A stretch of DNA of 64,000 nt from a virus (IMGVR_UViG_3300037067_017823:1-64000), one strand, 5' to 3'. Counted from the stretch's first letter, positions 11,386 through 34,990 are shown. The notes: generated from the letters alone by a model not told the origin. A program made the numbers and translations.

Positions 11386-11784
11386 TTAACTATACTTCCG
11401 AGCAATAGCCAAGAGAACTTGAAGATCTTTTTTTGAAATCGTTTGAGAATCATTCCAATCGAACCCTGGGTCTTTTAAATCCTTTTCAATTTGTTCGGCA
11501 GCTTTTTCATAGATATCGCCAACTTGTTCAACCATATCAAGAGCTTCAAGAATACCAGTTTTCGCAACAAGACAGACGTCCCAAGCTCCAGTAGTATTAA
11601 ATTCGTTTCCTCTCTTTTTTACTTGAGTTCTTAATTTTCTAATGACAAACTCTTGTATATCAGCCATAAAATCAGCGGTCTCGTCAGACTCTTGCCAATG
11701 TTTTATACCCACCATCCCTTCAGAAAGATTTACTTCTTCTTTAATTAGTTTTCTGAGCTCACTAAGTTTTATTCTTTTTATCAT
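11386..11784 (-). CDS. Putative head-internal (cargo) protein
   Basis: Leader MIKRIKLSELRKLIKEEVNLSEG shared with the neighbouring gene. Confidence 0.6.
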   Translation of the reverse strand: MIKRIKLSELRKLIKEEVNLSEGMVGIKHWQESDETADFMADIQEFVIRKLRTQVKKRGNEFNTTGAWDVCLVAKTGILEALDMVEQVGDIYEKAAEQIEKDLKDPGFDWNDSQTISKKDLQVLLAIARKYS

Positions 11785-11818
11785 AGTTTATTCTCCTCGA
11801 TCAGTGCTCCTATATAAA

Positions 11819-12286
11819 TTACAACTGAAGTGTTTTTATAAGTTTTGGAGTCATATCCTTTAATTCTTGCTTATATTCAGCTTTAAGTTCTTTCATAAAA
11901 CGATCTGGATCTTTTTTATATTCTCGAGATAAGTCCCTATTTTTAACCATATTATCTTTAGCTCTCTGAATATAATCTTCCCAAGAACTAACATCGTTTT
12001 CTTGTTGTACCCATTTGATATAATCATCGACAGTAGCACCACTATATAAAGCAACTATAGTATATCCGCCTTGTAGTTCAAAGACGTGTAAAGTTTTTGA
12101 AACAGCTAAAAGTTTTGGAAGATCAAAAACAAAATCCATAACAGCATAATGTCCAGATGAACCTTCATCAGGCGTATGTTCAATTCCAACATTTTTAATT
12201 TTTTGAGTATAACCACTTCCTTCATTAAGATTTACTTCTTCTCGAATCAATCTCTTCAGTTCACTAAGTTTTATTCTTGTTCTCAT
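11819..12286 (-). CDS. Putative head-internal (cargo) protein
   Basis: Leader MRTRIKLSELKRLIREEVNLNEG, then an unrelated body. Confidence 0.6.
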   Translation of the reverse strand: MRTRIKLSELKRLIREEVNLNEGSGYTQKIKNVGIEHTPDEGSSGHYAVMDFVFDLPKLLAVSKTLHVFELQGGYTIVALYSGATVDDYIKWVQQENDVSSWEDYIQRAKDNMVKNRDLSREYKKDPDRFMKELKAEYKQELKDMTPKLIKTLQL

Positions 12287-12303
12287 GTCTCTCTCTTCGG
12301 TTA

Positions 12304-13500
12304 TTATTCGATTCCGGCAAGTTTCTTCATTCGGTCAGCATCAACGATCTTCGAGGGAGGAAGAACGCCTGTTGGCCGAGCGGCCTCGAGAAGAACTTGA
12401 CGATCGACTTTGTCACTAAATTCTTTCTTCTCTTCCGCTTTCTTCGGTTGTTCTTTCTTCATGCTCTCTTGAAGTTTCGTTACTTTCGAAGGAGTTGTGC
12501 TCGAATTCTTGATTACGGCTTTTTTGTCAAGCTGTTCGAGAATCGTACGATAAACAACAACTGATTCTTTGCTGTTTGTCGCTTTATCAAAGGCTTCGAG
12601 AACTCGATATTTTCTATCCTTGTTTAGATCATAGCGAGCAAAGATTCGATTTACGAGAACGAGTTTTTCATTGAGCAGTTTCGTTTCACTTAGAATATTT
12701 TCAACTTTCTTCATTGTCATTCGTTCATTAACGATAATTTTCGAAGCTCTATTGAGAGCTCTCTTGAGAACATTGATTCTATGCTCAAGTTGAAGAGTGC
12801 GACTTTCTCTTCGTGGAAGTTCTTTTCTCATTCTTCTATTCTCCTTAACATCTTCGAGAGGTTCTTCTTCTGAATCATCAACGATATCAACATATTCATC
12901 ATCTTCTGGTAGTGGTGTATCATCAACGATATCAACAAACGTATTATCATCAGCGGCATCAACATTGATACGAACGTCATTATCTTTTATGTCGATATCA
13001 ACTGATTCTTCAAGACCTTCTTCTCCTGAATCATCTTCAATTTCGAGCTCTTCATCATCGCTAACTTCTTTGTCAGACTCGTCTTCTTTTGTTTCTTCGG
13101 CTTCGCCTTCTTCTGTTGGTTCTTCGCCTTTCAGTTCTGCAACGTCTTCTTTCACATCGTCAACCTTCACTTCAACAGCATCGACCTTTTGTTCGAGTTC
13201 TTCAACTTTATCTTCTACGCTTCCACCTTCAGTTCCTTCTTCACCATCTTCTTGTTCAATTTCTTTTGCGAGATCGTCGAGGTCGACTTCAGCTTCAGCA
13301 TCTCCGTCACCTTCTGGAGCATCTTCATCGTCTTCTTGTTCTGATAAAATTTTCTTTGAGGACTCATTTATTTTTTCATCGAAAAGCTTCGTGATCTTCG
13401 GTGAAAGTTCGTTCATGAGCTCAGTTTTTGCATTTTCAATTGCAATTTCTTTTAGAGCCATTGCTGATTCAACTACAGAATCTACTACTTTGTCTGACAT
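12304..13500 (-). CDS. Prohead core/scaffold protein (gp22-like position and composition)
   Basis: Very acidic N-half with many LxE/IxE sites, coiled-coil C-half (LLNEKLVLVNRIF), C-terminal RMKKLAGI; upstream of MCP. Confidence 0.8.
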   Translation of the reverse strand: MSDKVVDSVVESAMALKEIAIENAKTELMNELSPKITKLFDEKINESSKKILSEQEDDEDAPEGDGDAEAEVDLDDLAKEIEQEDGEEGTEGGSVEDKVEELEQKVDAVEVKVDDVKEDVAELKGEEPTEEGEAEETKEDESDKEVSDDEELEIEDDSGEEGLEESVDIDIKDNDVRINVDAADDNTFVDIVDDTPLPEDDEYVDIVDDSEEEPLEDVKENRRMRKELPRRESRTLQLEHRINVLKRALNRASKIIVNERMTMKKVENILSETKLLNEKLVLVNRIFARYDLNKDRKYRVLEAFDKATNSKESVVVYRTILEQLDKKAVIKNSSTTPSKVTKLQESMKKEQPKKAEEKKEFSDKVDRQVLLEAARPTGVLPPSKIVDADRMKKLAGIE

Positions 13501-13590
13501 TTTAATTTTCTCTCCTCTATTCAGCTTGATGTCTGTAAGCTGAACATATTTAATTATAGCTGAACTTGTTATTTTTCTTATTTTTATCTA

Positions 13591-13809
13591 TCAAAAGTCA
13601 ACTATTATTTCAGAACTTATTGCACTGTCTATGTCGTTTCTCAGTTTTTTCTTATCTGCGATATCGATTCCATATCTTGAAAATTGATTGATAATGAAAT
13701 CATATGCATTAATAGAAATTTTTCCACTAATCTTGTTTATTTTATCGATTTTTTGAAACTGTTGCGGAGTGATTTGCTCTTCTTTAAGAATTTCAGAAAA
13801 CTTTATCAT
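13591..13809 (-). CDS. Putative head-internal protein
   Basis: MIKFSEILKEE N-terminus resembles T4 capsid-targeting sequences. Confidence 0.55.
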   Translation of the reverse strand: MIKFSEILKEEQITPQQFQKIDKINKISGKISINAYDFIINQFSRYGIDIADKKKLRNDIDSAISSEIIVDF

Positions 13810-14777
13810 TGAGCGATTAAGCCGTTTTCGTTAAGTGTATTAACCAAGTCTGAAAATACAGAAGCGAGATCTGAAATTTCAACTTCTGGATCTTCTTTTA
13901 TGAGTGCTGTAAGTTCATCGAGAGATTTTATGAGCTTTGAAACGTTATCAATTACAACAGCTTTCTTCGTCTTAAAGACTGGCGATTCTCTTTTTTGTGG
14001 CGAAGGTTCATTTTCAGTATCAGCATCTGTTTTAGTTAGTTCTCTTTGTTCGTCGAGATCTTCACCTCTTCCAACATCATAACCTTTAAGTTCGAGATAA
14101 TCGCGGAGATCTTGTCCTTTTATCTCTTCAACGAAGTAAATTTTTATGTTTCCTGTAATATATGAATCACCTTTTACAACAACAGTTTCCTCTTCATGCT
14201 GTTCAACTTCGCCTTCTGGTGTTAGTGATTGTTTTATGTCAACTTCTACTTCTTCATCTTGTCCGAGGACTTCTTTTTTTGGAACGCTTATTTTTACTTT
14301 TTGAGTTTTAAAAACATCATTTGTAAGACCGAAGTTTTCAAGATCTTTTCTTAAATAGTTATAAAAAACAGTAGTAAGTGCAGCTGTTAAAACATCATTT
14401 GTAACTTTAATACGTCCCATTGTTGTATCAAATTCATGTTTATATTGAGAACCAGCATGCCAATCTGGATCTGACGGTGAACGAGTACTAATAATCGCAT
14501 AGTCAGATCTCTGTTCGGGATTCGGCGACTTGCTTGGCCACATTGTGATAGTGAAAAATTCTGGGTATGTTCTAGAAAATATGGAGTTGGCGTCTTTTAC
14601 TACTTCTCTAACATCTATTCTTTTTTGATACTTTGATTGAAGATTATCGATTGTATCAGAAATTATTTGATCTTTATGTGAACCAGGATTAAGTCCAATT
14701 GATAATTGTCGTCTGTGACCAATATAGTTGCCACGCTGCTCACCAATTAATTGAATAAGAGAATATTTCTTCATCAT
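13806..14777 (-). CDS. Head-region hypothetical protein
   Basis: 323 aa, MMKKYSLIQLIGE start, acidic C-terminal half ending LNENG. Confidence 0.65.
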   Translation of the reverse strand: MMKKYSLIQLIGEQRGNYIGHRRQLSIGLNPGSHKDQIISDTIDNLQSKYQKRIDVREVVKDANSIFSRTYPEFFTITMWPSKSPNPEQRSDYAIISTRSPSDPDWHAGSQYKHEFDTTMGRIKVTNDVLTAALTTVFYNYLRKDLENFGLTNDVFKTQKVKISVPKKEVLGQDEEVEVDIKQSLTPEGEVEQHEEETVVVKGDSYITGNIKIYFVEEIKGQDLRDYLELKGYDVGRGEDLDEQRELTKTDADTENEPSPQKRESPVFKTKKAVVIDNVSKLIKSLDELTALIKEDPEVEISDLASVFSDLVNTLNENGLIAQ

Positions 14778-14807
14778 GTCTTAATTATTATCGCAAAACG
14801 AAATTTT

Positions 14808-15254
14808 TCACTTTTCAATTGCTTCTGTTAATGCTGAAATCTTATTGAAATCTATAAAGCTTTTTTCTGCATCTGAGAAACTAAGTTGCTGTTCAGTTTT
14901 TGCGGCTTCCCTTTGTATAGTTTCCTTCGCCATTTCTTTGAATATAGGATCTTGTATTTTTTCAACGGCGGCTGTTATCTTTGGATTAGTAGGAGCTAGA
15001 ACAACATTCTCATCTTCACCGAGGACGGCTCTTCTCATTTTATTTCTCATCTCTTCGGTAATTTGTTGCTTCTTCGGTTGCCTCATTATTTGCGCTTCAC
15101 TTTGAGAAGTTGTTGTAGCAGACATTCCTGGAATTTGAACGCTTATATTGATTTTATCAGCTATTGATTCATTTATTGTCTTCTTAATGAAGTCTTCTGA
15201 AAGAACTTCTGTGAGGAGCTCTTTCACAAGCTTTTTGAGTTCAGTACGAGTCAT
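14808..15254 (-). CDS. Head-region protein with ELKKL leader
   Basis: MTRTELKKLVKELLTEVLSE...INES. Confidence 0.7.
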   Translation of the reverse strand: MTRTELKKLVKELLTEVLSEDFIKKTINESIADKINISVQIPGMSATTTSQSEAQIMRQPKKQQITEEMRNKMRRAVLGEDENVVLAPTNPKITAAVEKIQDPIFKEMAKETIQREAAKTEQQLSFSDAEKSFIDFNKISALTEAIEK

Positions 15255-15284
15255 ATTTATTTATACCTCCAATGCTATCATAAC

Positions 15285-15623
15285 TCATTCTTCTTCTTTT
15301 GAAATCTTTTCTTTCTCGGCTTCTTTTTCTTCAATTTCTTTAGATGCTTTTTCAACATCACTCATAATATCAGACAGCTTATTCTGTGTAGGAACCTTGA
15401 CACCCTTCAATGCCTCATTAAGGTCATCTTTAAAGTCATCGAGAAGCGTTGGAGCAATTAGTGGACCCGATTTTTCGAGGGCTGCTTCAATGAGCGGAAT
15501 CAGCTTTTGAATGAGCTTCATTAGATCTTTCGCTGCTCCTTCGGGGTCTTGTGGAACGTCGTTTTTGTACTTTGTGAGTTGTTCACTAAGAACTTCATTG
15601 ATGTGTTTCTTTAATGGCTTCAT
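15285..15623 (-). CDS. Head-region hypothetical protein
   Basis: MKPLKKHINEVLSE leader; AAGGAATGAAATG RBS. Confidence 0.65.
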   Translation of the reverse strand: MKPLKKHINEVLSEQLTKYKNDVPQDPEGAAKDLMKLIQKLIPLIEAALEKSGPLIAPTLLDDFKDDLNEALKGVKVPTQNKLSDIMSDVEKASKEIEEKEAEKEKISKEEE

Positions 15624-15644
15624 TTCATTCCTTCTCTCTTCTAA

Positions 15645-15983
15645 TTATTCTGTAGCATTTTCTTTCCAATATTCTGTTGTGAATTCATTAAGAGTCTTGT
15701 GAGCACTATCTAAATCATTAATTACCTTGCGTAAATCCTTAAGCTGTAAATAACATTTCGTATTTTTTGTTTCTTTATATGCTTTTGAAAGTCTATTGAC
15801 AACATCTTTTAAATCAGACATCATATATGGAATTTTTTCTTCACAATCACTAATACGCTCAATTCCAGAGTGTCTCATATAATATTCGATGAGGTCGATT
15901 GCGAACTCGAGGTGCAAGGTGTCGTAATCACTTTGTTCTAACAATTTCAATAGCTTCACTGATAATGGATTAATGGCGCGCAC
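15645..15983 (-). CDS. Head-region hypothetical protein
   Basis: GTG start, MRAINPLSVKLLKLLE; 5' end duplicated at 16290-16333. Confidence 0.6.
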   Translation of the reverse strand: MRAINPLSVKLLKLLEQSDYDTLHLEFAIDLIEYYMRHSGIERISDCEEKIPYMMSDLKDVVNRLSKAYKETKNTKCYLQLKDLRKVINDLDSAHKTLNEFTTEYWKENATE

Positions 15984-15986
15984 GTT

Positions 15987-16316: not shown

Positions 16317-16331
16317 GTTTTATTCCCTGTC

Positions 16332-16553
16332 TCAGTCATCAAGTGAGTAATCGAATGTGATCACTTTGAGTCTTTCGATACACGAGTCGAGAAGCTCTTC
16401 TTCATAGTTGTATCGACTTAATTTTTGGGACTCAGAGATTTTTGACAGATCTTTTATTATCTGTTTAAGAGCTTCCATATCTTTTGAATAATGTGATTGT
16501 TCCTTTATTAATTTTTTAATCTCACTTAAAGTTGTTCTATAAATTTTGGTCAT
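16332..16553 (-). CDS. Putative head-internal protein, paralogous leader
   Basis: Leader MTKIYRTTLSEIKKLIKEQ. Confidence 0.65.
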   Translation of the reverse strand: MTKIYRTTLSEIKKLIKEQSHYSKDMEALKQIIKDLSKISESQKLSRYNYEEELLDSCIERLKVITFDYSLDD

Positions 16554-17690: not shown

Positions 17691-18377
17691 TCACTTAAAA
17701 CGCGCTATAATTTTACCGTTATCATCTTTAACGATGTAAACAATTTTGTCCATCATTTTATCGAGTTTATTGTGATAAAAACTAATAGAGTATACCGCTT
17801 CTTTGTTTTTTGAAAATCTTTCGAACGAAGCGCGATAAATTTCTATATATTTTGAACCAATTGCTTTTTCTATATCTTGCTCTGAAAGCTTATCAATGCG
17901 TTTGTTATTGTCGTTGATATCATCAAACGGATTTGCATATTCTTGATCACCATACTTAACAACAGGATGATAGAACTCTTTAAGAGTTCTTCTTATTTCT
18001 TTTCTGAGGTTTAACTTAGAAAAATGTTTTTGTTGTACGTCGATAGCCGAATCAATTAATTGTCTAAATGATTTCTCGTCAATAAACTCACCAGAAAATA
18101 TTACTTCGTGTGGATGATATTCTTCACTATGTGCAAACTTAGGATCATCAAAAAGAATTCTTATTTTTCCTTTAACTGATATCTCAAGAGTATAAGCCCA
18201 ACCCCAAGAAGTTCCTGTTGGATCTTTTTTAAACAGATACTCTCTGTAATACGAATTGTTGCCATTGGGACTCTTTATGAGTTTATCGTTTTGAGATAAA
18301 ATTGTATCTATCTGCTTTGTTGTAAGAACGTCTATTCGAGGTTTTCGAAATTCTGTTAATTTCATGTAAATCACCAT
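17691..18377 (-). CDS. Two-module head-region protein
   Basis: MKLTEF start; internal LNLRKEIRRTLKEF leader copy. Confidence 0.65.
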   Translation of the reverse strand: MVIYMKLTEFRKPRIDVLTTKQIDTILSQNDKLIKSPNGNNSYYREYLFKKDPTGTSWGWAYTLEISVKGKIRILFDDPKFAHSEEYHPHEVIFSGEFIDEKSFRQLIDSAIDVQQKHFSKLNLRKEIRRTLKEFYHPVVKYGDQEYANPFDDINDNNKRIDKLSEQDIEKAIGSKYIEIYRASFERFSKNKEAVYSISFYHNKLDKMMDKIVYIVKDDNGKIIARFK

Positions 18378-18793
18378 TTATCGATTACAAAATCATAAAC
18401 ACTCTTAATATCTTCGTAAAGTTGTTCAATTTCTTCTCTGTTTTCTTTTTTATTAGGCTTATTTTTAAGCTTGTTTAAAATCAGATCAACTCTTTGTTTA
18501 ATGTTTTCGATGCCACCTACGACGTCAATATCATCATCAATTGTAAATTGCTCTCTTAATATTTTCTTTATTTCAAGTCTCAAATTATTATAACGATACC
18601 TTTGATTTTTAATAAATTCAATAGCGTCTTTTACACTTATTATTACAGTGTTTGAATTGTCATCAAACGTTACTACAACAATCTCTGATCCTGTGCTGCT
18701 CCCTCGCATTATTCGTGGTGTCCAGTCTATTTCACCATCTAAAGATAACCAAAAGTCGTGTAATAATTTGAATATTTTATTTGTTGAATTCAT
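18371..18793 (-). CDS. Two-module head-region protein
   Basis: Internal NNLRLEIKKILREQ leader copy. Confidence 0.6.
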   Translation of the reverse strand: MNSTNKIFKLLHDFWLSLDGEIDWTPRIMRGSSTGSEIVVVTFDDNSNTVIISVKDAIEFIKNQRYRYNNLRLEIKKILREQFTIDDDIDVVGGIENIKQRVDLILNKLKNKPNKKENREEIEQLYEDIKSVYDFVIDKW

Positions 18794-21130: not shown

Positions 21131-21200
21131 TTTATTTCTCCTCTCCTCTTATGTTTATTTCTTCTCTTAAGTTCATTTTATTTCTCCTCTCTCCTCTTAT
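21120..21200. repeat. Tandem duplication of RBS plus first codons (MNLR), creating mini-ORF MNLREEINIRGEEK* (21132-21176)
   Basis: cttaagttcattttatttctcctct(ct)cctcttat at 21120-21152 and 21166-21200. Confidence 0.85.
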
Positions 21201-21826
21201 ATCAAACAGTGATCTTCGCAATTGCAAATGAGTTTATTTAGGATCCGATTTATGCGATACTCTTTCGAAAAGAGATTTTCATGATTGCCAGATTCAGTTA
21301 TGAACTTTGTGTCGAGAGGATTAAATGATTCATTTAGCTTCTTCAGATATGCGCCTTGGCAACTTGCCTCTGAGACAAGATCCCAGCAGATCCAAGTTGC
21401 GTCATCTTGTACAATCGAACCTTCAGAACTCTCTTTGAGAGAGCCAACTGCTCTTGAAGAAATTCCAATCTTGATATTGCTATTCACAAGTTCTTGCGCA
21501 ATTTTTCCCTTTGGAGTATTCAAAAGCTCGAGTGTGCCAAATAACTCTGATCCTTGCCAATGAATTTCTGTAATAAGGTGAGAGACATCACTAAGTTCGA
21601 TAATTGAAGCTTCGGGATGATCGAGTTGTCCCAGAGATCTACGTTCTTTTATGAGCACTTCGTAGTTCTTCATTTCGCGCTCAAGAAGACTCTTTGGATA
21701 AATTCTCCCGTTAAAATTTTTAGAATCTGCGCGACTAAGCAGACCCGTAAGGAATATATGATCATTTCTTTTTTCGGCTTTATATTCGAACAAGTTATTT
21801 TCTACAAGCAGCAGCTTATCTGACAT
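21197..21826 (-). CDS. gp21: Prohead core protease, T4 gp21 family
   Basis: ADSKNFNGRIYP, SLGQLDHP (His), IGISSRAVGS (Ser), WDLVSEAS. Confidence 0.92.
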   Translation of the reverse strand: MSDKLLLVENNLFEYKAEKRNDHIFLTGLLSRADSKNFNGRIYPKSLLEREMKNYEVLIKERRSLGQLDHPEASIIELSDVSHLITEIHWQGSELFGTLELLNTPKGKIAQELVNSNIKIGISSRAVGSLKESSEGSIVQDDATWICWDLVSEASCQGAYLKKLNESFNPLDTKFITESGNHENLFSKEYRINRILNKLICNCEDHCLI

Positions 21827-23183: not shown

Positions 23184-23402
23184 TCACAAACTATTGCTCG
23201 CCATGTTTTTGAGAAGTTGTCTGAATATTTTTAACGTTTCATCAAAAGTAAGTTGATCTCGAACCAACGGATGTCCATCTTCTTCAAGTTTAAAATAGCC
23301 TCCGCTTCCAGCATCATCGGGAATAAATTCGATCTTTACATTTACTTCTTGCTTGATTCGAACTTCTTTGAGAGTTCTTCTTATCTCTTTTCTTAGGTTC
23401 AT
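23184..23402 (-). CDS. Putative head-internal protein
   Basis: Probable start MNLRKEIRRTLKEV at 23402. Confidence 0.6.
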   Translation of the reverse strand: MNLRKEIRRTLKEVRIKQEVNVKIEFIPDDAGSGGYFKLEEDGHPLVRDQLTFDETLKIFRQLLKNMASNSL

Positions 23403-24243: not shown

Positions 24244-25437
24244 TTAACTTCGATCTATTTCCGCCAAAATAAAATCGAATAATTTCGCGTGCATCACTTC
24301 TGACTTCCTCGGAATTTCGTAACCGTAAAGAGACCGAAGCGAGACATTCGATTCAATCATTTTTTCAATGACATCAGCACATTCTCCGGCAAATGTCCAC
24401 ACGACTTCTTGCTTCTCTTGAGGAGAAAGTTCAGCAACAGCAAAGTCGCCTCTTTGTGGAATGTTCACTTCAACATCTTCTTTGAACAGTTTCTTCACTT
24501 GCTCTTTGAGCTTCTTATTTTCATCCATCTTCTCATCTTCCTCTTTATCAATATCGTCATGATACTCATCTCGATGTTTCTCGTCATCTTCGAGTTTCTC
24601 TCGTTCCTCTCTCGAATCGAGTTCATCGATATCATGTTCACCTTCATCGTTCGCTTCGTCGAGAGGAACAGTACCACCATATTCAATAAAAAGTTTCTTA
24701 GCTAGTTCTTTTATCTTCATTGGAACGCGGCCATTTGTGAGAACCGGGAGATCATCGTGGAGTTGATCGATAACGCTATCAAAAGTTCCATCGTCTTGAA
24801 CTGTTCGCTCAATGATATCACAAACAAGTTCGTATTCATCCATCAAAATATCGTTTTGTTTCATGAAGTCGTCTATTTCTTTATCTCCAGTTAATATCAT
24901 TTTACGACGTTGGAGAGGTACTGTTTTATCATTATCTTCTTTTATCGGAGCTCCCGCAAACGTTGTCCATTCGAAAGAAAGAGGAATTCCTCGAAACTTA
25001 TGTGATAACCATGAGAGAATAATTGAATCATCTCTTCCCTGATCAATGAACTCCTTAAATGTATCTTCTGGAATCTTTGATGTACGAGGACCGAGAACAC
25101 CACCTCTTCGCCACTTGATATTCGTCACACGTGGAGCTTTTGGATCTCTTCGTGCTTCATTGAGGCCTTCTTCATCGAGATCCTCACATTTTTCTCCACA
25201 AGCATTATATTTTTCCATGCAACTGTCTTCGCACGAAGTGTCACCTTCACAAGAAGCATCGCATTTCTCATAAGAGTCATCGCAAGCTTTTTGACATTTA
25301 TCGAAAGCATCGTCTGACTCTTCTGTTGAATCGCCATCAAGCAGAAGTTCGAGATCATCATCAACTTTATTCTTATTCTTGTCTTCTTCTGACGAATCTT
25401 CGAACAGCTTTATGATTTGTTTTTTAAGTGTCGACAT
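24244..25437 (-). CDS. Modular acidic head-region protein with an 8-Cys CX3C array
   Basis: Probable start MSTLKKQIIKLFED at 25437; internal leader KKLKEQVKKLFKE; LNE/ANDE junctions. Confidence 0.65.
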   Translation of the reverse strand: MSTLKKQIIKLFEDSSEEDKNKNKVDDDLELLLDGDSTEESDDAFDKCQKACDDSYEKCDASCEGDTSCEDSCMEKYNACGEKCEDLDEEGLNEARRDPKAPRVTNIKWRRGGVLGPRTSKIPEDTFKEFIDQGRDDSIILSWLSHKFRGIPLSFEWTTFAGAPIKEDNDKTVPLQRRKMILTGDKEIDDFMKQNDILMDEYELVCDIIERTVQDDGTFDSVIDQLHDDLPVLTNGRVPMKIKELAKKLFIEYGGTVPLDEANDEGEHDIDELDSREEREKLEDDEKHRDEYHDDIDKEEDEKMDENKKLKEQVKKLFKEDVEVNIPQRGDFAVAELSPQEKQEVVWTFAGECADVIEKMIESNVSLRSLYGYEIPRKSEVMHAKLFDFILAEIDRS

Positions 25438-25441: not shown

Positions 25442-25696
25442 TTAATCCTTTTCAACTATTTCATTTAGTTCGATTGACATGAGCTTCATTTTTCCAAGAA
25501 AACGCTCAACAACTTTCCAATCAGCATCTGGATCGAACGTTGAATCTTTTCCAATGTTATAAGGAAGAAGACCGACGAAGCGATCGAGATTCGCCTTTAT
25601 CATATCGACTCGATCTTTAAAATCAATCCAAACTCTTGTGGGTTTCGTTTCTTCTCTAATCATTCTCTTGAGTTCACTCAACTTTATTTTTTTCAT
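25442..25696 (-). CDS. Putative head-internal protein
   Basis: Leader MKKIKLSELKRMIREE. Confidence 0.65.
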   Translation of the reverse strand: MKKIKLSELKRMIREETKPTRVWIDFKDRVDMIKANLDRFVGLLPYNIGKDSTFDPDADWKVVERFLGKMKLMSIELNEIVEKD

Positions 25697-26004: not shown

Positions 26005-26271
26005 TTATAGCTCACCAAGAGCAAGCAGTGATTCTTTTTGTTTAAAGACAAACTTTGTGTTGATATTAAGACCGATAGCTGTGTATTTCAGTGTTCCTGT
26101 AACAATATCTTTCACTGAATCGATCTTTTCTACTTTTATGCTATTCGATTCGAGATCAAATTGAGCGAACGTTGCTTTGAAGGATTCTTCAATTTTTCCT
26201 TCAATGATTCCTTTTTCTTCTTGTTCACTGAAGAGCTCTCTCACTTGTTCAATGAGTTTTATATTGTTCAT
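26005..26271 (-). CDS. Putative head-internal protein
   Basis: Leader MNNIKLIEQVRELFSEQ. Confidence 0.6.
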   Translation of the reverse strand: MNNIKLIEQVRELFSEQEEKGIIEGKIEESFKATFAQFDLESNSIKVEKIDSVKDIVTGTLKYTAIGLNINTKFVFKQKESLLALGEL

Positions 26272-27119: not shown

Positions 27120-29102
27120 TTATTCTGAAGTGATTTTATCGTCATTTTCAATAGAAACATCGAGCTCTTCTTTGTCTTCAAATTTCACTTTATTTATTCC
27201 ACTAGTGATGATTTCTGTTAGAAGTCTATTTTTCCCACCGAGATTTAGTGAAACCATTTCAGATTCGATGCCGTGAGCAAGGCGAGAAAATGTCTTTTTT
27301 CCATATGGATCATGCATTGTATCATCGTCATCATGTGTAACATCATTGCTTAAATCAACAAGACCACTTTGATTTCTGTTCTTCGACTGCCTTCTTTTTC
27401 TTTCATAATCTGTTTCTTTTTTCTTTGCCCTTGCTTTATCAAATGCATCATTTGCAGCAGTCACGAGTTCACCTTCACCGCCACCAACTTCAGCTTCTGC
27501 TCCACCTTCTTCAGCACCACCAAGCTCTGCTTCTTCTCCACCGAGTTCCTCACCACCGAGTTCTTCTCCTTCAACAGGAGGTTCAGCACCTCCACCACCC
27601 ATCATTCCTCCACCACCGCCTCCACCCATCATCTCACCCCCACCTTCAGCAGAACCTTGTTCACCAGCCTTTTGTTCAACGAATGCAATTTGCCCATCAA
27701 CATAAGCATCTTTCATTCTTCCAATATTTATTTGCTTAATGTCATCATCTTTGAGATTGAAGAAGCGTTTTAGAACATAGGAACGATCGAATAACTTTTC
27801 ATTATTGAGACCAGAGACAACCTGAACTCTTCTTTCGAGAAGGTCAAGTTTCTGCATTGAAGCGAGGTTCGATGGATTCGTTAGCTTCAAATCGAAACCA
27901 AGAAGATCTTTTCCTGAATATCCTTGAGAAATCAAGTGGACCATAGCAATCTTTGTGAGTTCAGAAACTATAGCTCTCTGTATTCTTTCTATTGTTCTTG
28001 AAAAACGAATATCGAGAGATGCGAGAGTTGATTTATTTGCAAGATCTTCTTCATACGTCAAATATGCTCTCGGTATTCCAAGAGCAGCAATCAGTTTCTT
28101 GAGAAGATATTCTACGTCTTCAATATCATTGACATGTTGACCACCTGGAAGTGATTCAATTCTATTTGTTTTGTCACCTCTTTGAGGAATAAAGTAGTCT
28201 TCAGAAACATCGAGTGGGTCGAATCTTTGATCAACTTTACCATAAAGCTTGTTCACAACGTTTGCATTTCTAAGTTTCGCCTTAATTTTTTGCATGAACT
28301 CTTCAACGTTTTGTGGTTGAACACCTGAAACGTCGATATAAAAAACTCTTCTTTCTGGAGCTCGAAGAACACGATAAACAAGCATTGCGTCTTCCATGAG
28401 AACGAGTTTCCGCCAGAAAGATCGAGCTCCCTCAATGAACGATGTTCCATATGGAAGAAATTTATCTTGACCGAGAAGACGGAAGTGAGCAACCTGCCAG
28501 TTTTCTAGTAAGCGGTTTGTTGTTAACCACTTGAATCTTATTTCTTGAGGATCTTCCTTTGAACCTTCGAGTCGTTCAAAGTCATTAACTGGAATTGTTA
28601 TGAGACGTTCAATGCCATTTTTTGGATGAACGTCGATATACTGAGTGAAGTCGCCATATTTACAGAGTGTTCTCGCCCACCCCCAAATATAAAAATCAAT
28701 GTCAAGAATATCGAAGAATAACGATTCAAGAATTTGCTTTATTGACTCATTCTCAGATTCTACGAATAAAACTTTTCCATCTTCAGAACGCGAAGTAGCT
28801 TCATCAGCTACGAGGTTAAGAGCGCTGGCTATTTCTGGTACGGACTCCATAAGGCAAAACTCAGTGTACCTTGCAAGCCTATTCGTATCATAGTTTGCAT
28901 TTGACCCATCACCAAACCATTGTGACGCTCCAAGATTGCTTCTTTGAAGTCCAAAATCTCGCATGAAAGAAGTGACTTCTTCTTTCGTATCGAGAGACGG
29001 CTTTATTCTTGACGAAACGAGCGAACCGCGCTTCATCAAACGCCAAAGATTACGAAACGTACTTACGTTTCCGAACTTCGGTCCATCGTTTTTATTATCC
29101 AT
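27120..29102 (-). CDS. gp20: Portal protein, T4 gp20 family, with Gly/Glu-rich tail
   Basis: WRKLVLMEDAMLVYRVLRAPERRVFYIDV; EDYFIPQRG; IESLPGG; ALGIPRAYL. Confidence 0.95.
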   Translation of the reverse strand: MDNKNDGPKFGNVSTFRNLWRLMKRGSLVSSRIKPSLDTKEEVTSFMRDFGLQRSNLGASQWFGDGSNANYDTNRLARYTEFCLMESVPEIASALNLVADEATSRSEDGKVLFVESENESIKQILESLFFDILDIDFYIWGWARTLCKYGDFTQYIDVHPKNGIERLITIPVNDFERLEGSKEDPQEIRFKWLTTNRLLENWQVAHFRLLGQDKFLPYGTSFIEGARSFWRKLVLMEDAMLVYRVLRAPERRVFYIDVSGVQPQNVEEFMQKIKAKLRNANVVNKLYGKVDQRFDPLDVSEDYFIPQRGDKTNRIESLPGGQHVNDIEDVEYLLKKLIAALGIPRAYLTYEEDLANKSTLASLDIRFSRTIERIQRAIVSELTKIAMVHLISQGYSGKDLLGFDLKLTNPSNLASMQKLDLLERRVQVVSGLNNEKLFDRSYVLKRFFNLKDDDIKQINIGRMKDAYVDGQIAFVEQKAGEQGSAEGGGEMMGGGGGGGMMGGGGAEPPVEGEELGGEELGGEEAELGGAEEGGAEAEVGGGEGELVTAANDAFDKARAKKKETDYERKRRQSKNRNQSGLVDLSNDVTHDDDDTMHDPYGKKTFSRLAHGIESEMVSLNLGGKNRLLTEIITSGINKVKFEDKEELDVSIENDDKITSE

Positions 29103-30295: not shown

Positions 30296-33232
30296 CTAAA
30301 TCTTTGCTATCAATAGTGCAAGGTGTTCAGCTTCATTATTGTTATTAGGTTTTTTTCCTATATCAAATGCTTCTCTCGATGAAATGAAGCCTGAAACAAG
30401 AGTATCTATTTTTTGTATCGTTTTTTCAATTTCTTTGAAGTGTCTATCTTTTATAACTGCACAAATTGCGAGAGACATTATAATATCGTCAGTACTCCCT
30501 CTTGTTGCTTCTGGTCTCTGTCCCTTCCAAATGAATGTTGTAAATTCATCATAACATCTCTTTGAGCGAATAGTAATAGCTCCAAGTCGAAGGAGCTCCT
30601 CAAGTTTCTGAAGCATACTTGGTCTTGATGTAGACGTTGTATGAAGACCAGCTTTCGCTGATTTGTTTCCAGTTGATTCCCAACAAGTGAGAACACCAAA
30701 TGGCATTCCACCAAGCGACCTCGTAGAAAAATAAAGATCTTCATATTCGAGTTCAAGAATTTTTTGAATTACAGCATCACCATAAGAGTTCGATTCTGGA
30801 ATTATTAATGCATTATTATATTCTCGTCCAATGTTCACAAGAAACTCTGAAAAATCATTTGTTTTGATCTTACCTCTATATTCAGCAACAACTTCTCCTG
30901 TAGCAACATTCATGACACAAAACGCAGAAAAATCACCACCATCTCCTCTTGCGACATCAGCTCCAATCAAGTATCTTTGATCAAATTCAGAACTCTTCCA
31001 AATCCAAAGATCTCCTCTTTTTTGAATTGGTTCGCAAATTGTTTCATTGATTTTTTCAAAGATATTAGTGTCAAGAAATGTATTACCAGATTCGAGGAAC
31101 TTACATTCATATTCTTGCGCAATTTCTCTTGTTGTTTTTCCTATTCTCTCTTTTTCAAACCATTCCCTCGAGAATCTTCTGCTCCATGGATATTCTTTTA
31201 CTTTAAATTCGTTTTCTCCGTTTTGAGCACCAGTAACTATTTCCCAAAACTTGTTTCCAACACCTCTCGGCGTGGAAGCCATGACGCATCTTCCGCCTGT
31301 ATTACTACCTATTATTCCGTTCTGTAGGAATGAATGTGTCTTTGGTACTGTAAAGTCATAAGTGATATTCTCAGAATCTTTTATATCAACGATCTCGTCC
31401 CAAAAACATCTATGTTCAATCAGATCGTTAAATAGTCTATCTTGACTTTCAGTTATTTTTATATTTTGCTCTCTTATTATATTTACAAACTTACAGATCC
31501 AATTGAAAGTTATTTTCTTATACTTATCAACATATAAAAGATCTGTTCTAACTTTATTTCTTCTAAAGAAACTTTTGGACTTACCTGAATTCTTGATTAT
31601 GTCTTTGAACTGTTCAACGACAACATGTTTTGGAATTGTTTCGCGTTTCCAAATCTGAATTCGTTCTTTTGATTGTTTTCTAAGTCTGTCGTTTTTACGT
31701 TTTATTCTGAATCCAATATTTTGTTTAAAGACAGTTAAATAGCTTCTTGAAATAGATAGCTTCCAACAATTATGTGCACTCTTTGGTAACTTACCTCTAG
31801 GTAATACGCATCCCTTATCTAAAAGTTTTTGTAAGTCATCATCATGCATCAATCGTATATAAGAAACGATTCCAAAATTTAACAATAATAACTGAGTTTG
31901 TATTAATAACTTGTGACTCGAACTTACTAAAACAATGTCTCCTTTTTCTCCTATACAACCATCACCATCGAACAGCCCTGACAAAAAAGAACCAATGATT
32001 TCTTTTGAGCATTCAAATATTTTTTCTGGAATGTGTTTTGTATGACTTTTATTAACCCTGTTTATGCCAATAGCTTTAAAAAGTCTAACCATCTCTTTCG
32101 AACAGCAAATAAGTTTTCCTTTACTTCCTTCGTAGTCTGGCTTTTGACTATGAAACTCTTTTATAACTTTATTTTTTAAGAACACTTTTCTAAATTCATC
32201 GTCTTCGTTACTAATTAAAACTCCATTTCCTATATCGTTAATATCTTTAGAACCAGTTATCCAACCTTCAGCAACATATCCACCTAAAATATATGCGAAA
32301 TTTTTTGTGAGATATTTGAGCTGTTTATGACCAACGAAGTTATTATTTCCCCATACATTCATATCAACATCAACGCGGAGACAGTCTCCAATCTTGAGAT
32401 TTTCCATTGCAGTCATTTCAGATCCGTTTTCAGTGAGCTTCAATAATGGATGTATAAGAGTTGTTTCAAGTTGGAGACCATGTCTAGTTGTTATTATCTT
32501 CGTCTTACTTTTTGGAGAAACATATGCATGAGAAACTTCTTCGATACCTTTTCTTCCATATATTTTTAAACCATTGACTTTATTACTATATTCTCCTTCA
32601 TTAATGTCTTTACAGATGTCATCAATTCTTTTGAAACCACTCTCTGTGAGTATCATTGTGTTGCCAGTTACACAAGAAATAGTCGGGAAGAGCCCTACCC
32701 AATGTTCTCTCAGTTTCTCAATAAGAGCAGCTTCGTCAATAAAGAACAGAGATGCTGCTTCACCAACACCGGCGTCCATAGAAGTAGCTTGACTCTTTAC
32801 CCATGATCCATTTGATAACTCAAAGCGCATCGAATTGTTCTTAACAACAGAATATAATCTAAGCCATTGTGGACATTCAGTAACAAAGGTTTTTACCATC
32901 TCAAAAGAGATTCCAGCTTTTTCTCTCTTTGTTGCCATAATGAAAACGTGACGAGCTTTTCGAAAGAGAATATACCAAGCAATGAAGCCAGCAATTATCG
33001 TTGAAACACCGAGCTGTCTTGATTTTAGAACTGCGAGGTAGCGATTTTCTTGAAGTTCTTGTAATATTTCTCTTTGGTAGTCAAAGAGCTCAAATCTTTT
33101 TATGCCAAATTCTTCTGTTCTTATATAGCCATATTGATCGAGGAAGTACTCTACACTATCAGCACATTTCAAAAATTCAGACTTTATAAACTCTTTTGTG
33201 AGACCAGACGAATCGTGTTTTGGATCAGCCAT
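30296..33232 (-). CDS. terL: Terminase large subunit, T4 gp17 family, intein-containing
   Basis: Walker A KSRQLGVST, Walker B FFIDEAA, STPRGVGN, QEYEC, nuclease GADVARGDGGD and DDIIMS. Confidence 0.95.
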   Translation of the reverse strand: MADPKHDSSGLTKEFIKSEFLKCADSVEYFLDQYGYIRTEEFGIKRFELFDYQREILQELQENRYLAVLKSRQLGVSTIIAGFIAWYILFRKARHVFIMATKREKAGISFEMVKTFVTECPQWLRLYSVVKNNSMRFELSNGSWVKSQATSMDAGVGEAASLFFIDEAALIEKLREHWVGLFPTISCVTGNTMILTESGFKRIDDICKDINEGEYSNKVNGLKIYGRKGIEEVSHAYVSPKSKTKIITTRHGLQLETTLIHPLLKLTENGSEMTAMENLKIGDCLRVDVDMNVWGNNNFVGHKQLKYLTKNFAYILGGYVAEGWITGSKDINDIGNGVLISNEDDEFRKVFLKNKVIKEFHSQKPDYEGSKGKLICCSKEMVRLFKAIGINRVNKSHTKHIPEKIFECSKEIIGSFLSGLFDGDGCIGEKGDIVLVSSSHKLLIQTQLLLLNFGIVSYIRLMHDDDLQKLLDKGCVLPRGKLPKSAHNCWKLSISRSYLTVFKQNIGFRIKRKNDRLRKQSKERIQIWKRETIPKHVVVEQFKDIIKNSGKSKSFFRRNKVRTDLLYVDKYKKITFNWICKFVNIIREQNIKITESQDRLFNDLIEHRCFWDEIVDIKDSENITYDFTVPKTHSFLQNGIIGSNTGGRCVMASTPRGVGNKFWEIVTGAQNGENEFKVKEYPWSRRFSREWFEKERIGKTTREIAQEYECKFLESGNTFLDTNIFEKINETICEPIQKRGDLWIWKSSEFDQRYLIGADVARGDGGDFSAFCVMNVATGEVVAEYRGKIKTNDFSEFLVNIGREYNNALIIPESNSYGDAVIQKILELEYEDLYFSTRSLGGMPFGVLTCWESTGNKSAKAGLHTTSTSRPSMLQKLEELLRLGAITIRSKRCYDEFTTFIWKGQRPEATRGSTDDIIMSLAICAVIKDRHFKEIEKTIQKIDTLVSGFISSREAFDIGKKPNNNNEAEHLALLIAKI
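31301..32674 (-). mobile_element. Intein with LAGLIDADG endonuclease (458 aa) in TerL
   Basis: Begins CVTGNTMILT; YILGGYVAEG and FLSGLFDGDG; ends TYDFTV...SFLQNGIIGSN followed by T; removal restores PTIS-TGG. Confidence 0.93.
33186..33232. repeat. 47-nt direct repeat copy 1 (first 16 codons of terL)
   Basis: 44/47 identical to 34303-34349; both encode MADPKHDSSGLTKEFI. Confidence 0.95.
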
Positions 33233-34349
33233 AAAACTTTCTCCAAAATGAATCTAATTGATTTGATTCGCCATTACAATAATATGGTAACATTTTCTCA
33301 GTTTTGTTTTTAAGAAAATTAGTAATAGAAACATCAGAAAATTTTACTACGTTTATACACATATTCTTGCTAGAAATATAGTCTTCAAGATATCTATCTC
33401 TATAATATGTTTCAAATATCGTTTTGTCTGTCTTTGTTCTTAAATTTGCTATTTCAACTATTGGTCTATCAAGACCGTGATAATAGATACCATCAATACA
33501 TATAAAAATAATTCGACCATCTTCTACAACAGCAAAATCAAAAGTGAAAGATTTTTTGTAATCTTCTAGTCTTAAGCCAAACAGTTTTATAAATTCATTT
33601 GAGTTTATACTTATTTGATTATGAACGCAATTAAATTTTGAACTCAAAAATGACCCAAACTTGCTTTCTGGATTTGATTTGTTATACGTCCCATTTTTCT
33701 TTCTTGTTTCAGAAATTTTCAAAGAAACAAGTCTATTAAAAATAGCTCCTTTTGATTTTCTTGTATTTACTCCCTTAATAGCTGACTCACTTCTTTTAAC
33801 GAGAAATTTTTCAGTGTAATAACCGTTTTGTCTCTTTTTTAAAAGAGTTTTTTTACCTATAACAGATAAAAGACCTTTTTTTCTTAAATTCTCTGCTCTC
33901 TTCAAAGCGCAAATATGATAAATGTTTTTACTTTTTAACGTCTTTTTTGAATTTTCAATAACTTTTTTTTGTATATGAGGAGTCACAAAAGAATTTTTAA
34001 ATCCATATTTTTTTAAAAAACTTTTTTCAATAGACATTTTTCTAAATTGATTCATGCATTTTTTGTTATTACAAGTATTTTTAAGACGTAACCTAATGTA
34101 ACCATAACTTCTAAAATAATTTTTGTTACAGACAGCGCAATTACATATTTCATCAGTATGATGCTTCCAAGCGTATTCAATTCTAGAGATATTATGTTGA
34201 GCTAATAGATGACCAGAAAAACCTTGTGAACCTATATATGTATTACAACATCTACATAAAATACTAAACTTGCTGTCTAATATTTTGATATCTTTACAGT
34301 CAATAAACTCTTTTGTGAGACCAGAAGAGTCATGTTTTGGATCAGCCAT
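33225..34349 (-). mobile_element. Free-standing homing endonuclease-like gene starting with terL's first 16 residues
   Basis: MADPKHDSSGLTKEFI, then CRCC...HLLAQH, YNKSNPE, DFAVV...CIDGIYYHGLDRP; overlaps the terL ATG. Confidence 0.85.
34303..34349. repeat. 47-nt direct repeat copy 2
   Basis: Differs from copy 1 at three synonymous positions. Confidence 0.95.
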
Positions 34350-34385
34350 ACATTAATTATGATTTTGTGGAACTTTTAGTAGGTC

Positions 34386-34670
34386 TTAATATATTTTTAG
34401 TCTTGGACTAGTAGCTTTATCTTCAGACGGAATCGATATTTTTACATTTAGTTTTATTTCTATTTTCTTAAGTTGTTCAAGAAATTTTTTCTTATCACTG
34501 GGACTGTCGAGAGCATCGAGTTCAGCCTGAATGGCTAGAGGAAGATCATGTTCTAAGATTGTGTTTATTTTTTGAAATTTATTGGAACGAAGTCTTTCAA
34601 GCTCAGTCTTCTCACTATCGCTATCTCTCTATTCTCTAATAACCTTTCTTATTTCTTTTCTTAGGTTCAT
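34386..34670 (-). pseudogene. Leader-bearing ORF interrupted by an in-frame TAG at codon 14
   Basis: Not in track. MNLRKEIRKVIRE*RDSDSEKTELERLRSNKFQKINTILEHDLPLAIQAELDALDSPSDKKKFLEQ...LKIY*; ATGA overlap with the upstream gene. Confidence 0.65.
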
Positions 34671-34990
34671 CTTCTCTCGTATCCTTTAATTCCGAGTTCT
34701 TCTCCTATATCGCCTTCTGTTTCATTTGTTATACTATTAAGATTCATAAATGCTTCTTCAAAATTATCCCAAGCGTCTTTTACATTTCTAGGAAGTTTAT
34801 TGTACGAAGAATTTGAAAATTTTATAGAAGCCCAAAGGCCACTGCCACTGCCCCCAGGACTGCGCCGACCTATTGTTTTTTCTAGTTCACGTAGTGCTTC
34901 AAATTGTTCTTCTTTAGAATAATCTTTTCCAAATCCAGGAATCTCTTCGTCTTTTGACATAACTTCTCTGATCGTCTTTCTTAAGTTCAT
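34667..34990 (-). CDS. Putative head-internal protein
   Basis: Probable start MNLRKTIREVM at 34990 after GAAGGAA RBS. Confidence 0.6.
   Translation of the reverse strand: MNLRKTIREVMSKDEEIPGFGKDYSKEEQFEALRELEKTIGRRSPGGSGSGLWASIKFSNSSYNKLPRNVKDAWDNFEEAFMNLNSITNETEGDIGEELGIKGYERR

What the first reader, a model, noticed from the sequence alone, without database searches (positions are those of the whole stretch)
11386..34990. Array of about 25 unrelated small genes sharing a capsid-targeting-like leader and gp21 cleavage motif: a phage cargo-loading system
Seen: genes between capsid, protease, portal and terminase begin with near-identical amphipathic leaders (MIKRIKLSELRKLIKEEVNLSEG, MRTRIKLSELKRLIREEVNLNEG, MKKIKLSELKRMIREE, MTKIYRITLSELKKVIKEE, MNLRKEIRRTLKE, MNLRKEIKETIRE, MNKIRQVIRE, MNIREQVKKLFE, MIKFSEILKE), then diverge completely. 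Established: T4 internal proteins carry a short N-terminal capsid-targeting sequence removed by gp21 at (L/I)-X-E, and IPI* is an injected anti-restriction protein. The MCP here has IKE at residues 61-63, close to the gp23 site at E65. Inference: the leader is a packaging tag for a large, variable set of proteins ejected with the DNA, possibly anti-defence or host-takeover factors.
Basis: partly seen in the sequence, partly recalled or inferred. Interest (0 to 1): 0.82.

Follow-up and report, generated by a model that had tools for sequence, protein, structure and literature searches.

The report
Shared cleavable leader on phage head genes
An uncultured T4-like phage puts the same short N-terminal helix, ending in the cut site of its capsid protein, on about 16 otherwise unrelated small proteins, which most likely tags them for loading into the phage head as in T4, but on a much larger scale.

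Summary
The contig is a distant T4-like myophage. Its capsid protein, head protease and portal all match the T4 families (Gp23, Peptidase_S77 and Portal_T4).

- **Count:** 12-13 small genes carry a statistically robust basic amphipathic leader, 3-4 carry a looser version, and about 4 are doubtful.
- **Location:** all lie between portal and capsid gene or just upstream of the terminase gene. None lies elsewhere in the 89 kb.
- **Link to the capsid cut site:** the leader core (hydrophobic-K/R-x-hydrophobic-I-K/R-E) has its best non-seed match in the genome at the predicted capsid propeptide cut site (LKELIKE|S). That site is conserved in 22 related capsid proteins.
- **Cargo:** the parts after the leader are unrelated, acidic and match no known family.
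- **Global spread:** a leader profile searched against 1.84 billion proteins found 52 hits. Forty-nine start at residue 1-3 of small proteins, on about 40 unrelated bodies.

This is a T4-style capsid-targeting and gp21-cleavage system, greatly expanded in an uncultured clade. Packaging, cleavage, ejection and any anti-defence role remain untested. I rate it a new variant of a known kind. Earlier notes of this scan cover this same genome only.

The parts
9604..11232 (-). Major capsid protein, gp23 family (542 aa)
   Evidence: Pfam Gp23 259.5 bits; phrog_138; T4 gp23 structures E about 1e-29
11041..11064 (-). Predicted capsid propeptide cleavage site, residues 57-64 LKELIKE|S
   Evidence: Highest non-seed score of the leader matrix in the whole genome, 14.7 bits; ENQxxx[LI][LIV][KRS]E conserved in 22 related capsid variants
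11386..11784 (-). Leader gene, KLSEL-type, 132 aa; inserted between scaffold and capsid gene
   Evidence: only 2 homologues in 5.8 billion proteins, both keep the leader and a second LSE|G site; absent at this position in relative L064
11819..12286 (-). Leader gene, KLSEL-type, 155 aa
   Evidence: no family or Atlas neighbour
12304..13500 (-). Scaffold (gp22-like), 398 aa, net charge -52
   Evidence: Position and alignment with the scaffold-position proteins of relatives; charge; no PHROG or Pfam hit
13591..13809 (-). Leader gene (looser), 72 aa, MIKFSEILKE|E
   Evidence: Matrix 8.3 bits
13806..14777 (-). Possible leader gene, 323 aa, N-terminus ends LIGE|Q
   Evidence: Matrix 9.8 bits, borderline
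14808..15254 (-). Leader gene, 148 aa; weak tblastn match (28-30% identity, E 5e-4 to 8e-4, two loci) to the conserved ~130-aa leader protein that follows the protease in relatives, and an N-terminus similar to L077:461-955 by inspection
15285..15623 (-). Leader gene, 112 aa
   Evidence: Matrix 16.5 bits; a similar body, judged by eye, in L077 carries a different N-terminus
15645..15983 (-). Leader-like gene (weak), 112 aa, GTG start, ends LLE|Q
   Evidence: Seen by eye and in the 26-column HMM; 8-column matrix only 2.5 bits
15987..16214 (-). Leader gene, MTKIYR-type, 75 aa
   Evidence: matches relatives over the leader only
16332..16553 (-). Leader gene, MTKIYR-type, 73 aa
   Evidence: 89% identity to L001 proteins over the first 19 residues only
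17691..18365 (-). 224-aa protein with an internal leader copy at residues 122-134
   Evidence: 33 of 39 nt identical to the 5' end of gene 23184-23402, with TTA in place of ATG and the other differences synonymous
18371..18793 (-). 140-aa protein with an internal leader-like motif at residues 75-82
   Evidence: Matrix 12.3 bits
19050..19451 (-). Leader gene, 133 aa, MNKIRQVIRE|S
   Evidence: Matrix 14.5 bits
19520..21130 (-). 536-aa protein: first 5 residues of the MNLRK leader only, plus an internal motif at residues 113-124
21132..21176 (-). Leader-only mini-ORF (14 codons) made by a tandem duplication of ribosome-binding site plus ATGAACTTAAGA
21197..21826 (-). Prohead protease, gp21 family
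   Evidence: Pfam Peptidase_S77 71.8 bits against a cut-off of 27; phrog_207; T4 gp21 structure 5JBL E 1.4e-11
23184..23402 (-). Leader gene, MNLRK-type, 72 aa
23404..23631 (-). 75-aa acidic protein whose N-terminus MRFQEMIDE|A resembles the T4 capsid-targeting sequence
   Evidence: Only match of a (post hoc) T4-CTS-like pattern among 9,938 candidate ORFs; T4 sequence from PMC8442874
23634..23972 (-). Leader-like gene, LFE-type, 112 aa
   Evidence: N-terminal pair scores 34-38 with 25437 and 26271
24244..25437 (-). 397-aa very acidic protein with an LFE-type leader and a second, internal copy at about residues 307-320, ahead of a conserved C-terminal domain
25442..25696 (-). Leader gene, KLSEL-type, 84 aa
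   Evidence: Matrix 18.6 bits
25711..25986 (-). Leader gene, MNLRK-type, 91 aa
   Evidence: Matrix 16.0 bits; 2 homologues only
26005..26271 (-). Leader-like gene, 88 aa; homologue in L001
26268..27080 (-). Conserved 270-aa protein between portal and protease (prohead core candidate) with an internal motif
   Evidence: Homologues in 47 related loci; motif
27120..29102 (-). Portal, gp20 family
   Evidence: Pfam Portal_T4 232 bits
34667..34990 (-). Leader gene, MNLRK-type, 107 aa, upstream of the terminase gene
   Evidence: Matrix 17.7 bits; a body in L077 sharing the short EEIPGFGKDYS motif (seen by eye) carries an MKIYR-type leader
34386..34670 (-). Broken leader gene: 13-residue MNLRK leader, in-frame TAG at 34629-34631, then 80 codons open in the same frame

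Best explanation
The leaders are capsid-targeting propeptides of the T4 kind. Each is a 9-22-residue basic amphipathic helix that ends in hydrophobic-x-Glu. It most likely docks its protein onto the very acidic scaffold core while the prohead assembles (inferred). The gp21-family protease encoded in the middle of the array then cuts after the Glu. This is the same extended motif (L-K-x-L-I-K-E) that ends the capsid protein's own propeptide (inferred from motif identity). The freed bodies, 55-380 residues and mostly acidic, stay in the head and are probably ejected with the DNA (inferred from T4, where any protein fused to the tag is retained). The tag is modular. Recombination within or next to the leader coding sequence moves it between genes, which produces arrays that differ between close relatives. 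Internal copies of the motif in larger head proteins are probably additional cleavage sites.
For: The phage has the T4 head machinery: Gp23, Peptidase_S77 and Portal_T4. The leader family is significant and confined to the head module. The best non-seed match of the leader core in the genome is the capsid site LKELIKE|S, and that site is conserved in 22 capsid variants. Upstream DNA is not conserved, and 36 of 81 differing leader codons are synonymous, so selection acts on the peptide. In six related contigs, 21 leader proteins fall into 18 unrelated body clusters. A leader profile against 1.84 billion proteins gave 52 hits; 49 start at residue 1-3 of 39-228-aa proteins, with about 40 body clusters. 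The Glu at P1 is 90% or more conserved, P3 stays hydrophobic and P2 varies, which fits the T4 rule L/I-X-E (PMC9026906). Leader lengths fit T4's 10-19 residues. Bodies that look related by eye carry different leader subtypes. Relatives have 0-3 such genes in a 4.4-6.5 kb portal-to-capsid interval, against 15.9 kb here. Leaders are more amphipathic than other N-termini (0.65 against 0.47, p = 3e-5). Leaders are basic (+1 to +4 in 14 of the 16 scored), whereas the scaffold has net charge -52.
Against: There are no proteomic or biochemical data: packaging, cleavage and ejection are all inferred. The main leader family shows no sequence homology to the T4 tag MKTYQEFIAE. The bodies are acidic, unlike T4's basic internal proteins. 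The bare [LI]xE motif is common in this Lys/Glu/Ile/Leu-rich proteome. Several proposed members are weak. The contig is incomplete (89 kb), so early genes are only partly sampled. In relative L064, two leader genes lie 8 kb beyond the capsid gene, among genes that do not look structural. The AlphaFold model of one member is of low confidence.
Confidence: 0.65

Rival explanations
1. The leader proteins are accessory components of the scaffolding core only. They are targeted to the prohead and cut, but are then degraded or expelled before or during DNA packaging, like T4 gp22, gp67 and gp68, and so are not delivered to the host.
For: The bodies are acidic like the scaffold. Some, such as the 14808-15254 family, are conserved next to the protease in most relatives. 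Several larger members carry internal motif copies, as expected for proteins cut into fragments. T4 core proteins are cut at many sites and leave the head (PMC9026906).
Against: Most small bodies have no further high-scoring site. About 40 unrelated, fast-turning-over bodies are hard to reconcile with a structural assembly role. In T4, folded foreign proteins fused to the tag remain in the head (PMC8442874).
Confidence: 0.2
2. The N-terminal helix is a functional part of the mature proteins and is not removed. It might be an oligomerisation, membrane-binding or nucleic-acid-binding helix shared by a set of late proteins.
For: It is a basic amphipathic helix. No cleavage data exist.
Against: This does not explain why the helix ends in the capsid protein's conserved propeptide motif. 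It does not explain the invariant Glu with a free P2. It also does not explain why the genes cluster around the protease, scaffold and capsid genes.
Confidence: 0.08
3. The shared 5' segment is a DNA- or RNA-level element, such as a translation-initiation enhancer or a recombination cassette, and the peptide is incidental.
For: Recombination scars sit at the leader: a tandem duplication of ribosome-binding site plus the first four codons, a leader-only mini-ORF, and an internal copy with ATG changed to TTA.
Against: Upstream regions are not conserved. Copies differ by many synonymous and conservative changes, while hydrophobic periodicity and the terminal Glu are kept. Similarity stops exactly at the predicted cut site.
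Confidence: 0.04
4. The resemblance is a by-product of Lys/Glu/Ile/Leu-rich composition in an AT-rich genome.
For: [LI]xE occurs 1.63 times per 100 residues, and 22% of other genes have one near the N-terminus.
Against: Shuffle controls give 26 pairs observed against 1.8 expected. There are no matches on the opposite strand in 940 kb of related loci. The global hits are strictly N-terminal.
Confidence: 0.01

Closest known systems
T4 internal proteins IPI, IPII, IPIII and Alt with their capsid-targeting sequence (CTS), processed by the gp21 prohead protease
   Same: Both have a short N-terminal propeptide (10-19 aa in T4, 9-22 here) ending in L/I-x-Glu and sitting on unrelated proteins. Both occur in a phage with gp20, gp21, gp22-like and gp23 head genes. 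In both, the tag's end resembles the capsid protein's own cut site. The cargo sets are non-conserved and vary between relatives (PMC9026906, PMC3012670, PMC8442874).
   Different: The main leader family has no sequence similarity to MKTYQEFIAE, and its conserved core is longer (P7-P1). About 16 tagged genes occur per genome instead of 3-4. They are clustered inside the portal-to-capsid module rather than scattered. The predicted mature proteins are acidic rather than basic. Nothing has been shown experimentally.
Inner-body and ejection proteins of giant phages (phiKZ, 201phi2-1, SPN3US), cut by diverged gp21-like proteases
   Same: Many different head-internal proteins are processed after Glu at a short motif by a gp21 homologue. 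Some have several sites, and a large protein cargo is ejected (PMC9026906, PMC10052503).
   Different: As I recall, the giant-phage substrates are larger and have longer, non-uniform propeptides. No single shared leader is known there. The capsid and protease here are much closer to T4.
Encapsulin cargo-loading peptides
   Same: A short modular peptide directs unrelated proteins into an HK97-fold shell (from my own knowledge).
   Different: Encapsulin tags are usually C-terminal, bind the shell directly and are not removed by a protease, and no DNA is packaged.

Membership tests
T4-type CTS / internal-protein system | Phage encodes a gp21-family (Peptidase_S77) prohead protease | tested here: met
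   Pfam PF03420 71.8 bits against a cut-off of 27; aligns to T4 gp21 5JBL. The query has His and Ser where that chain has Ala; I believe the chain is a catalytic mutant, from memory.
T4-type CTS / internal-protein system | gp23-family capsid protein with an N-terminal propeptide ending in L/I-x-Glu | tested here: met
   Pfam Gp23 259.5 bits. I61-K62-E63 lies between the conserved LLENQ helix and the conserved N-arm block, and is conserved in 22 variants. Cleavage itself is not shown. The site would leave an N-arm 16 residues shorter than in T4.
T4-type CTS / internal-protein system | Short (10-19 aa) N-terminal propeptide ending in L/I-x-Glu on otherwise unrelated proteins | tested here: met
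   Predicted leaders are 9-22 aa. P1 Glu is 90% or more conserved, P3 is I/L/V/F and P2 is free. Bodies are unrelated.
T4-type CTS / internal-protein system | Sequence similarity of the tag to the T4 CTS MKTYQEFIAE | tested here: not met
   The main families (KLSEL, MTKIYR, MNLRK types) do not resemble it. Only 23404-23631 (MRFQEMIDE|A) does, by a post hoc pattern.
T4-type CTS / internal-protein system | Mature proteins are small and highly basic | tested here: not met
   Bodies are small but acidic: pI 4.4-5.4 for 15 of the 16 scored (the other 6.4), net charge 0 to -49.
T4-type CTS / internal-protein system | [quoted passage not shown] | not testable with these tools
   The phage is uncultured and no proteome exists.
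T4-type CTS / internal-protein system | Proteins are ejected into the host and act there (for example IPI* against a restriction enzyme) | not testable with these tools
   No body matches any Pfam or PHROG family or any Atlas cluster.

The most novel reading that the evidence does not exclude
An uncultured clade of T4-like phages has turned the prohead-targeting propeptide into a general cargo-loading platform shuffled by recombination. One leader family is attached to at least 40 unrelated, mostly acidic proteins of unknown family, with about 16 per genome. These are packed into the head and injected as a rapidly exchanged arsenal against host defences or for host takeover. The protease recognises an extended 7-residue motif shared with the capsid propeptide.
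Probability: 0.3. Interest if true: 0.75.

Novelty: new variant of a known kind. Interest (0 to 1): 0.55.

Why it matters
If the tag works as in T4, sequence alone identifies a catalogue of dozens of candidate virion-packaged, host-injected proteins from uncultured phages. Such proteins are normally invisible without proteomics. Injected proteins act before any phage gene is expressed, so they are prime candidates for inhibitors of restriction and other immediate defences. The extended match between the tag and the capsid cut site also makes a testable prediction about the substrate recognition of gp21-family proteases. The tag could serve as a packaging signal for engineering non-coli T4-like phages.

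Tried and rejected
- **First leader HMM:** a 26-column model that included post-leader residues detected relatives poorly (best 8.4 bits). I replaced it with an 8-column core matrix and later with a 30-column profile of 21 class-A leaders.
- **Family searches:** PHROG and Pfam scans of 30 head-module proteins and of 10 leader proteins from relatives gave nothing significant for any cargo body.
- **ESM Atlas:** searches with 11819-12286 and 24244-25437 gave no usable neighbour.
- **AlphaFold2:** the model of 11386-11784 (3-sequence alignment) had mean pLDDT 54.6, too poor for a fold search. It shows only a helix at residues 7-15, then coil.
- The context of database homologues and the sample origin could therefore not be examined.
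- **Alignment to T4 gp23:** phmmer does not align the N-terminal 76 residues. 'Close to E65' therefore holds by topology, not by alignment.
- **Homologue searches:** searches with 11386-11784 and 25711-25986 found only 2 close homologues each.
- one DNA pattern had too few specified bases, one regular expression returned nothing, and one Fisher line used ad hoc numbers and is not cited.
- **Recoding of TAG:** I considered this to explain the broken leader gene and rejected it. TAG ends 12 of 86 genes, and no tRNA gene is present in the window.
Full report
**What the window is.** The window is the first 64 kb of an 89,144-bp contig with about 33% G+C and late genes on the minus strand. The head module is unmistakably T4-like.
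- The capsid protein (9604-11232) matches Pfam Gp23 at 259.5 bits.
- The protease (21197-21826) matches Peptidase_S77 at 71.8 bits and aligns to the T4 gp21 structure 5JBL.
- The portal (27120-29102) matches Portal_T4 at 232 bits.
- The terminase gene (30296-33232) carries a LAGLIDADG intein.
- The nearest cultured relatives are distant: Flavobacterium phage immuto at 38% capsid identity, and Vibrio phage KVP40 gp21 at 35% protease identity.

**Checking the observation.** I compared the first 22 residues of all 103 genes with one another without supervision.
- 26 pairs scored 35 or more, against 1.8 expected from shuffled N-termini.
- Only two families emerged: this leader, confined to 11386-27080 plus 34667-34990, and the zinc-finger N-terminus of the endonuclease-like genes.
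- An 8-column matrix of the leader core (P7 to P1') finds 11 N-terminal matches at 12 bits or more. All are in the head module, with none on the other strand or elsewhere in the 89 kb.
- A matrix built only from the MNLRK-type genes scores all five KLSEL/MTKIYR-type genes at 9.2-14.9 bits, above the maximum of 7.8 in 76 other genes. The reverse test also works, but more weakly: the class-A-only matrix gives the other class 2.4-11.4 bits against a maximum of 10.7 outside the module.

The subfamilies therefore share one core: hydrophobic-[KR]-[KR]-x-[ILV]-[KR]-Glu. The leaders are basic (+1 to +4 in 14 of the 16 scored) and more amphipathic than other N-termini (p = 3e-5). Bodies with the leader removed show no BLASTP similarity to one another. 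They also match no PHROG or Pfam family.

My count is 12-13 robust members, 3-4 looser ones and about 4 doubtful ones, so about 16 rather than 25. The bare tripeptide [LI]xE is frequent in this proteome. It ends within roughly the first two dozen residues in 20 of 27 head-module genes but also in 17 of 76 others. By itself it proves little; the extended motif carries the signal.

**The link to the protease.** The strongest non-seed match of the leader matrix anywhere in the genome is capsid residues 57-64, LKELIKE|S, at 14.7 bits.
- This site lies between the conserved LLENQ helix of the propeptide and the conserved N-arm block that aligns with mature T4 gp23.
- That is where a gp23-type maturation site should be, although it would leave an N-arm 16 residues shorter than in T4.
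- The pattern ENQ-x-x-x-[LI]-[LIV]-[KRS]-E is kept in all 22 distinct related capsid sequences I collected, while the next residue varies.
- T4 gp21 cuts after L/I-X-E, and the T4 internal proteins carry 10-19-residue N-terminal capsid-targeting propeptides (PMC9026906). The T4 tag is MKTYQEFIAE (PMC8442874).
- The leaders here are 9-22 residues long.
- In an alignment of 21 leaders, the P1 Glu is 90% or more conserved, P3 is I/L/V/F and P2 varies freely (K, R, G, N, S). This is the T4 rule.

**Peptide, not DNA.** Sequence upstream of the start codons is not conserved beyond a ribosome-binding site. The similarity starts at the ATG and stops at the predicted cut. Among the five class-A leaders, 36 of 81 differing codons are synonymous, and most of the rest are K/R or L/I/V/M exchanges.

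**Modularity across phages.**
- Typical relatives (40-47% protease identity, 63 loci) have a portal-to-capsid interval of 4.4-6.5 kb. They carry 0-3 leader genes, and these genes recur at the same positions in many relatives: one conserved ~130-aa protein just after the protease, and one ~107-aa protein upstream of the terminase gene. Here the interval is 15.9 kb.
- Across 940 kb of related loci the matrix finds 21 N-terminal matches on the coding strand and none on the opposite strand.
- A degenerate DNA pattern for the MTKIYR-type leader found a closer clade of five viral contigs. One of them (IMGVR 3300029288_000850) carries at least nine such genes around its protease.
- In these contigs plus the window, 21 distinct leader proteins fall into 18 unrelated body clusters.
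- Genes 15987-16214 and 16332-16553 match proteins of relative L001 at 59% (first 29 residues) and 89% (first 19 residues) identity respectively, and over the leader only.
- Conversely, bodies that look related by eye carry different leader subtypes. Gene 34667-34990 and L077:5441-5836 share only a short EEIPGFGKDYS motif, and the other examples are 15645-15983, 15285-15623 and 14808-15254 with their L077 counterparts. I did not test these pairs with an alignment.
- In relative L064 (72% capsid identity) the scaffold gene abuts the capsid gene. The two leader genes 11386-12286 are therefore an insertion here.
- A profile of the first 30 residues of the 21 leaders, searched against 1.84 billion representative proteins, gave 52 hits at E of 0.001 or less. 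Forty-nine begin at residue 1-3 of proteins of 39-228 aa, and their bodies fall into about 40 BLASTP clusters.

**Traces of how the tag moves.**
- Residues 122-134 of the 17691-18365 protein repeat the N-terminal leader of 23184-23402. They share 33 of 39 nucleotides, with TTA where the ATG would be and only synonymous changes otherwise.
- Upstream of 19520-21130, a tandem duplication of the ribosome-binding site plus ATGAACTTAAGA creates a 14-codon leader-only ORF. The 536-aa gene itself keeps only MNLRK.
- Downstream of 34667-34990 lies another MNLRK leader, followed by an in-frame TAG and 80 further open codons.
- Internal motif copies also occur in 18371-18793, 19520-21130, 24244-25437 (ahead of its conserved C-terminal domain) and 26268-27080. 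I read these as additional cleavage sites or fossil fusions.

**Mechanism.**
- *Shown:* the T4-type head genes; a significant, strictly N-terminal, modular leader; and its identity with the conserved capsid propeptide motif.
- *Inferred:* the basic helix docks on the acidic scaffold core (net charge -52); the protease removes it; and the bodies remain in the head and are ejected. In T4, any protein fused to the tag is retained.
- *Untested:* any role in the host. The acidic nature of the bodies (pI 4.4-5.4) differs from T4's basic internal proteins. It leaves open the rival that many are expendable core components.

**Comparison and novelty.** Reviews of T4 already state that T-even internal proteins are a diverse set sharing only a conserved targeting sequence (PMC3012670). 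They also suggest that the tag may be an evolutionary device for loading varied proteins (PMC9026906). Giant phages pack many protease-processed proteins (PMC10052503). The principle is therefore known. Four things are new here:
- a different and longer leader consensus in a distant, uncultured lineage;
- its near-identity with the capsid cut site over seven residues;
- the scale, with about 16 genes in one head module and about 40 body families worldwide;
- the acidic cargo.

I rate this a new variant of a known kind, with moderate interest.

**Limits.** The contig is incomplete. The one structure model is of low confidence.

Noticed in passing
window 34386-34670 (-): A further MNLRK-type leader gene is interrupted by an in-frame TAG (34629-34631) directly after the 13-residue leader, and 80 more codons stay open in the same frame. 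It is probably a fresh pseudogene. TAG is a normal stop here (12 of 86 genes) and no tRNA gene is in the window.
   Followed up: partly
window 21132-21176 (-): A tandem duplication of ribosome-binding site plus ATGAACTTAAGA between the protease gene and 19520-21130 creates a 14-codon leader-only mini-ORF.
   Followed up: partly
window 23404-23631 (-): The N-terminus MRFQEMIDE|A of this 75-aa, very acidic protein resembles the T4 capsid-targeting sequence MKTYQEFIAE at the positions reported as important in T4. It was the only match of a post hoc pattern among 9,938 candidate ORFs.
   Followed up: partly
window 30296-33232 and 33225-34349 (-): The large terminase carries an intein with a LAGLIDADG domain. 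The 374-aa zinc-finger ORF upstream begins with the same 16 residues as the terminase, as if an inserted endonuclease gene had duplicated the terminase 5' end.
   Followed up: partly
window 8659-9504, 21816-23171, 23992-24243, 29095-30270, 33225-34349, 43119-44579, 45607-46656, 47364-48350 (-); also 68922 and 71055 (+) beyond the window: A family of ORFs with a shared C2H2-like zinc-finger N-terminus, probably homing endonucleases, is interleaved with essential late genes. 23992-24243 looks like a truncated copy. One member hits Pfam DUF7487.
   Followed up: no
window 11819-12286 and 23184-23402 (-): Two otherwise unrelated cargo bodies share a short motif, IE[HF]xPD[DE]xxSGxY, shortly after their different leaders.
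   Followed up: no
L037:12309-12599 and the same position in many related loci: The more distant marine relatives encode what looks, by inspection of its sequence and from my own knowledge, like a small basic ribosomal protein bS21 homologue between protease and capsid genes. I found none in this window's head module.
   Followed up: no
window 36685-39771 (-): A 1,028-aa protein combines a calcineurin-like phosphoesterase domain with an AAA_23/SMC_N ATPase domain. It looks like a fused Mre11/Rad50-type (T4 gp47/gp46-like) recombination nuclease.
   Followed up: no
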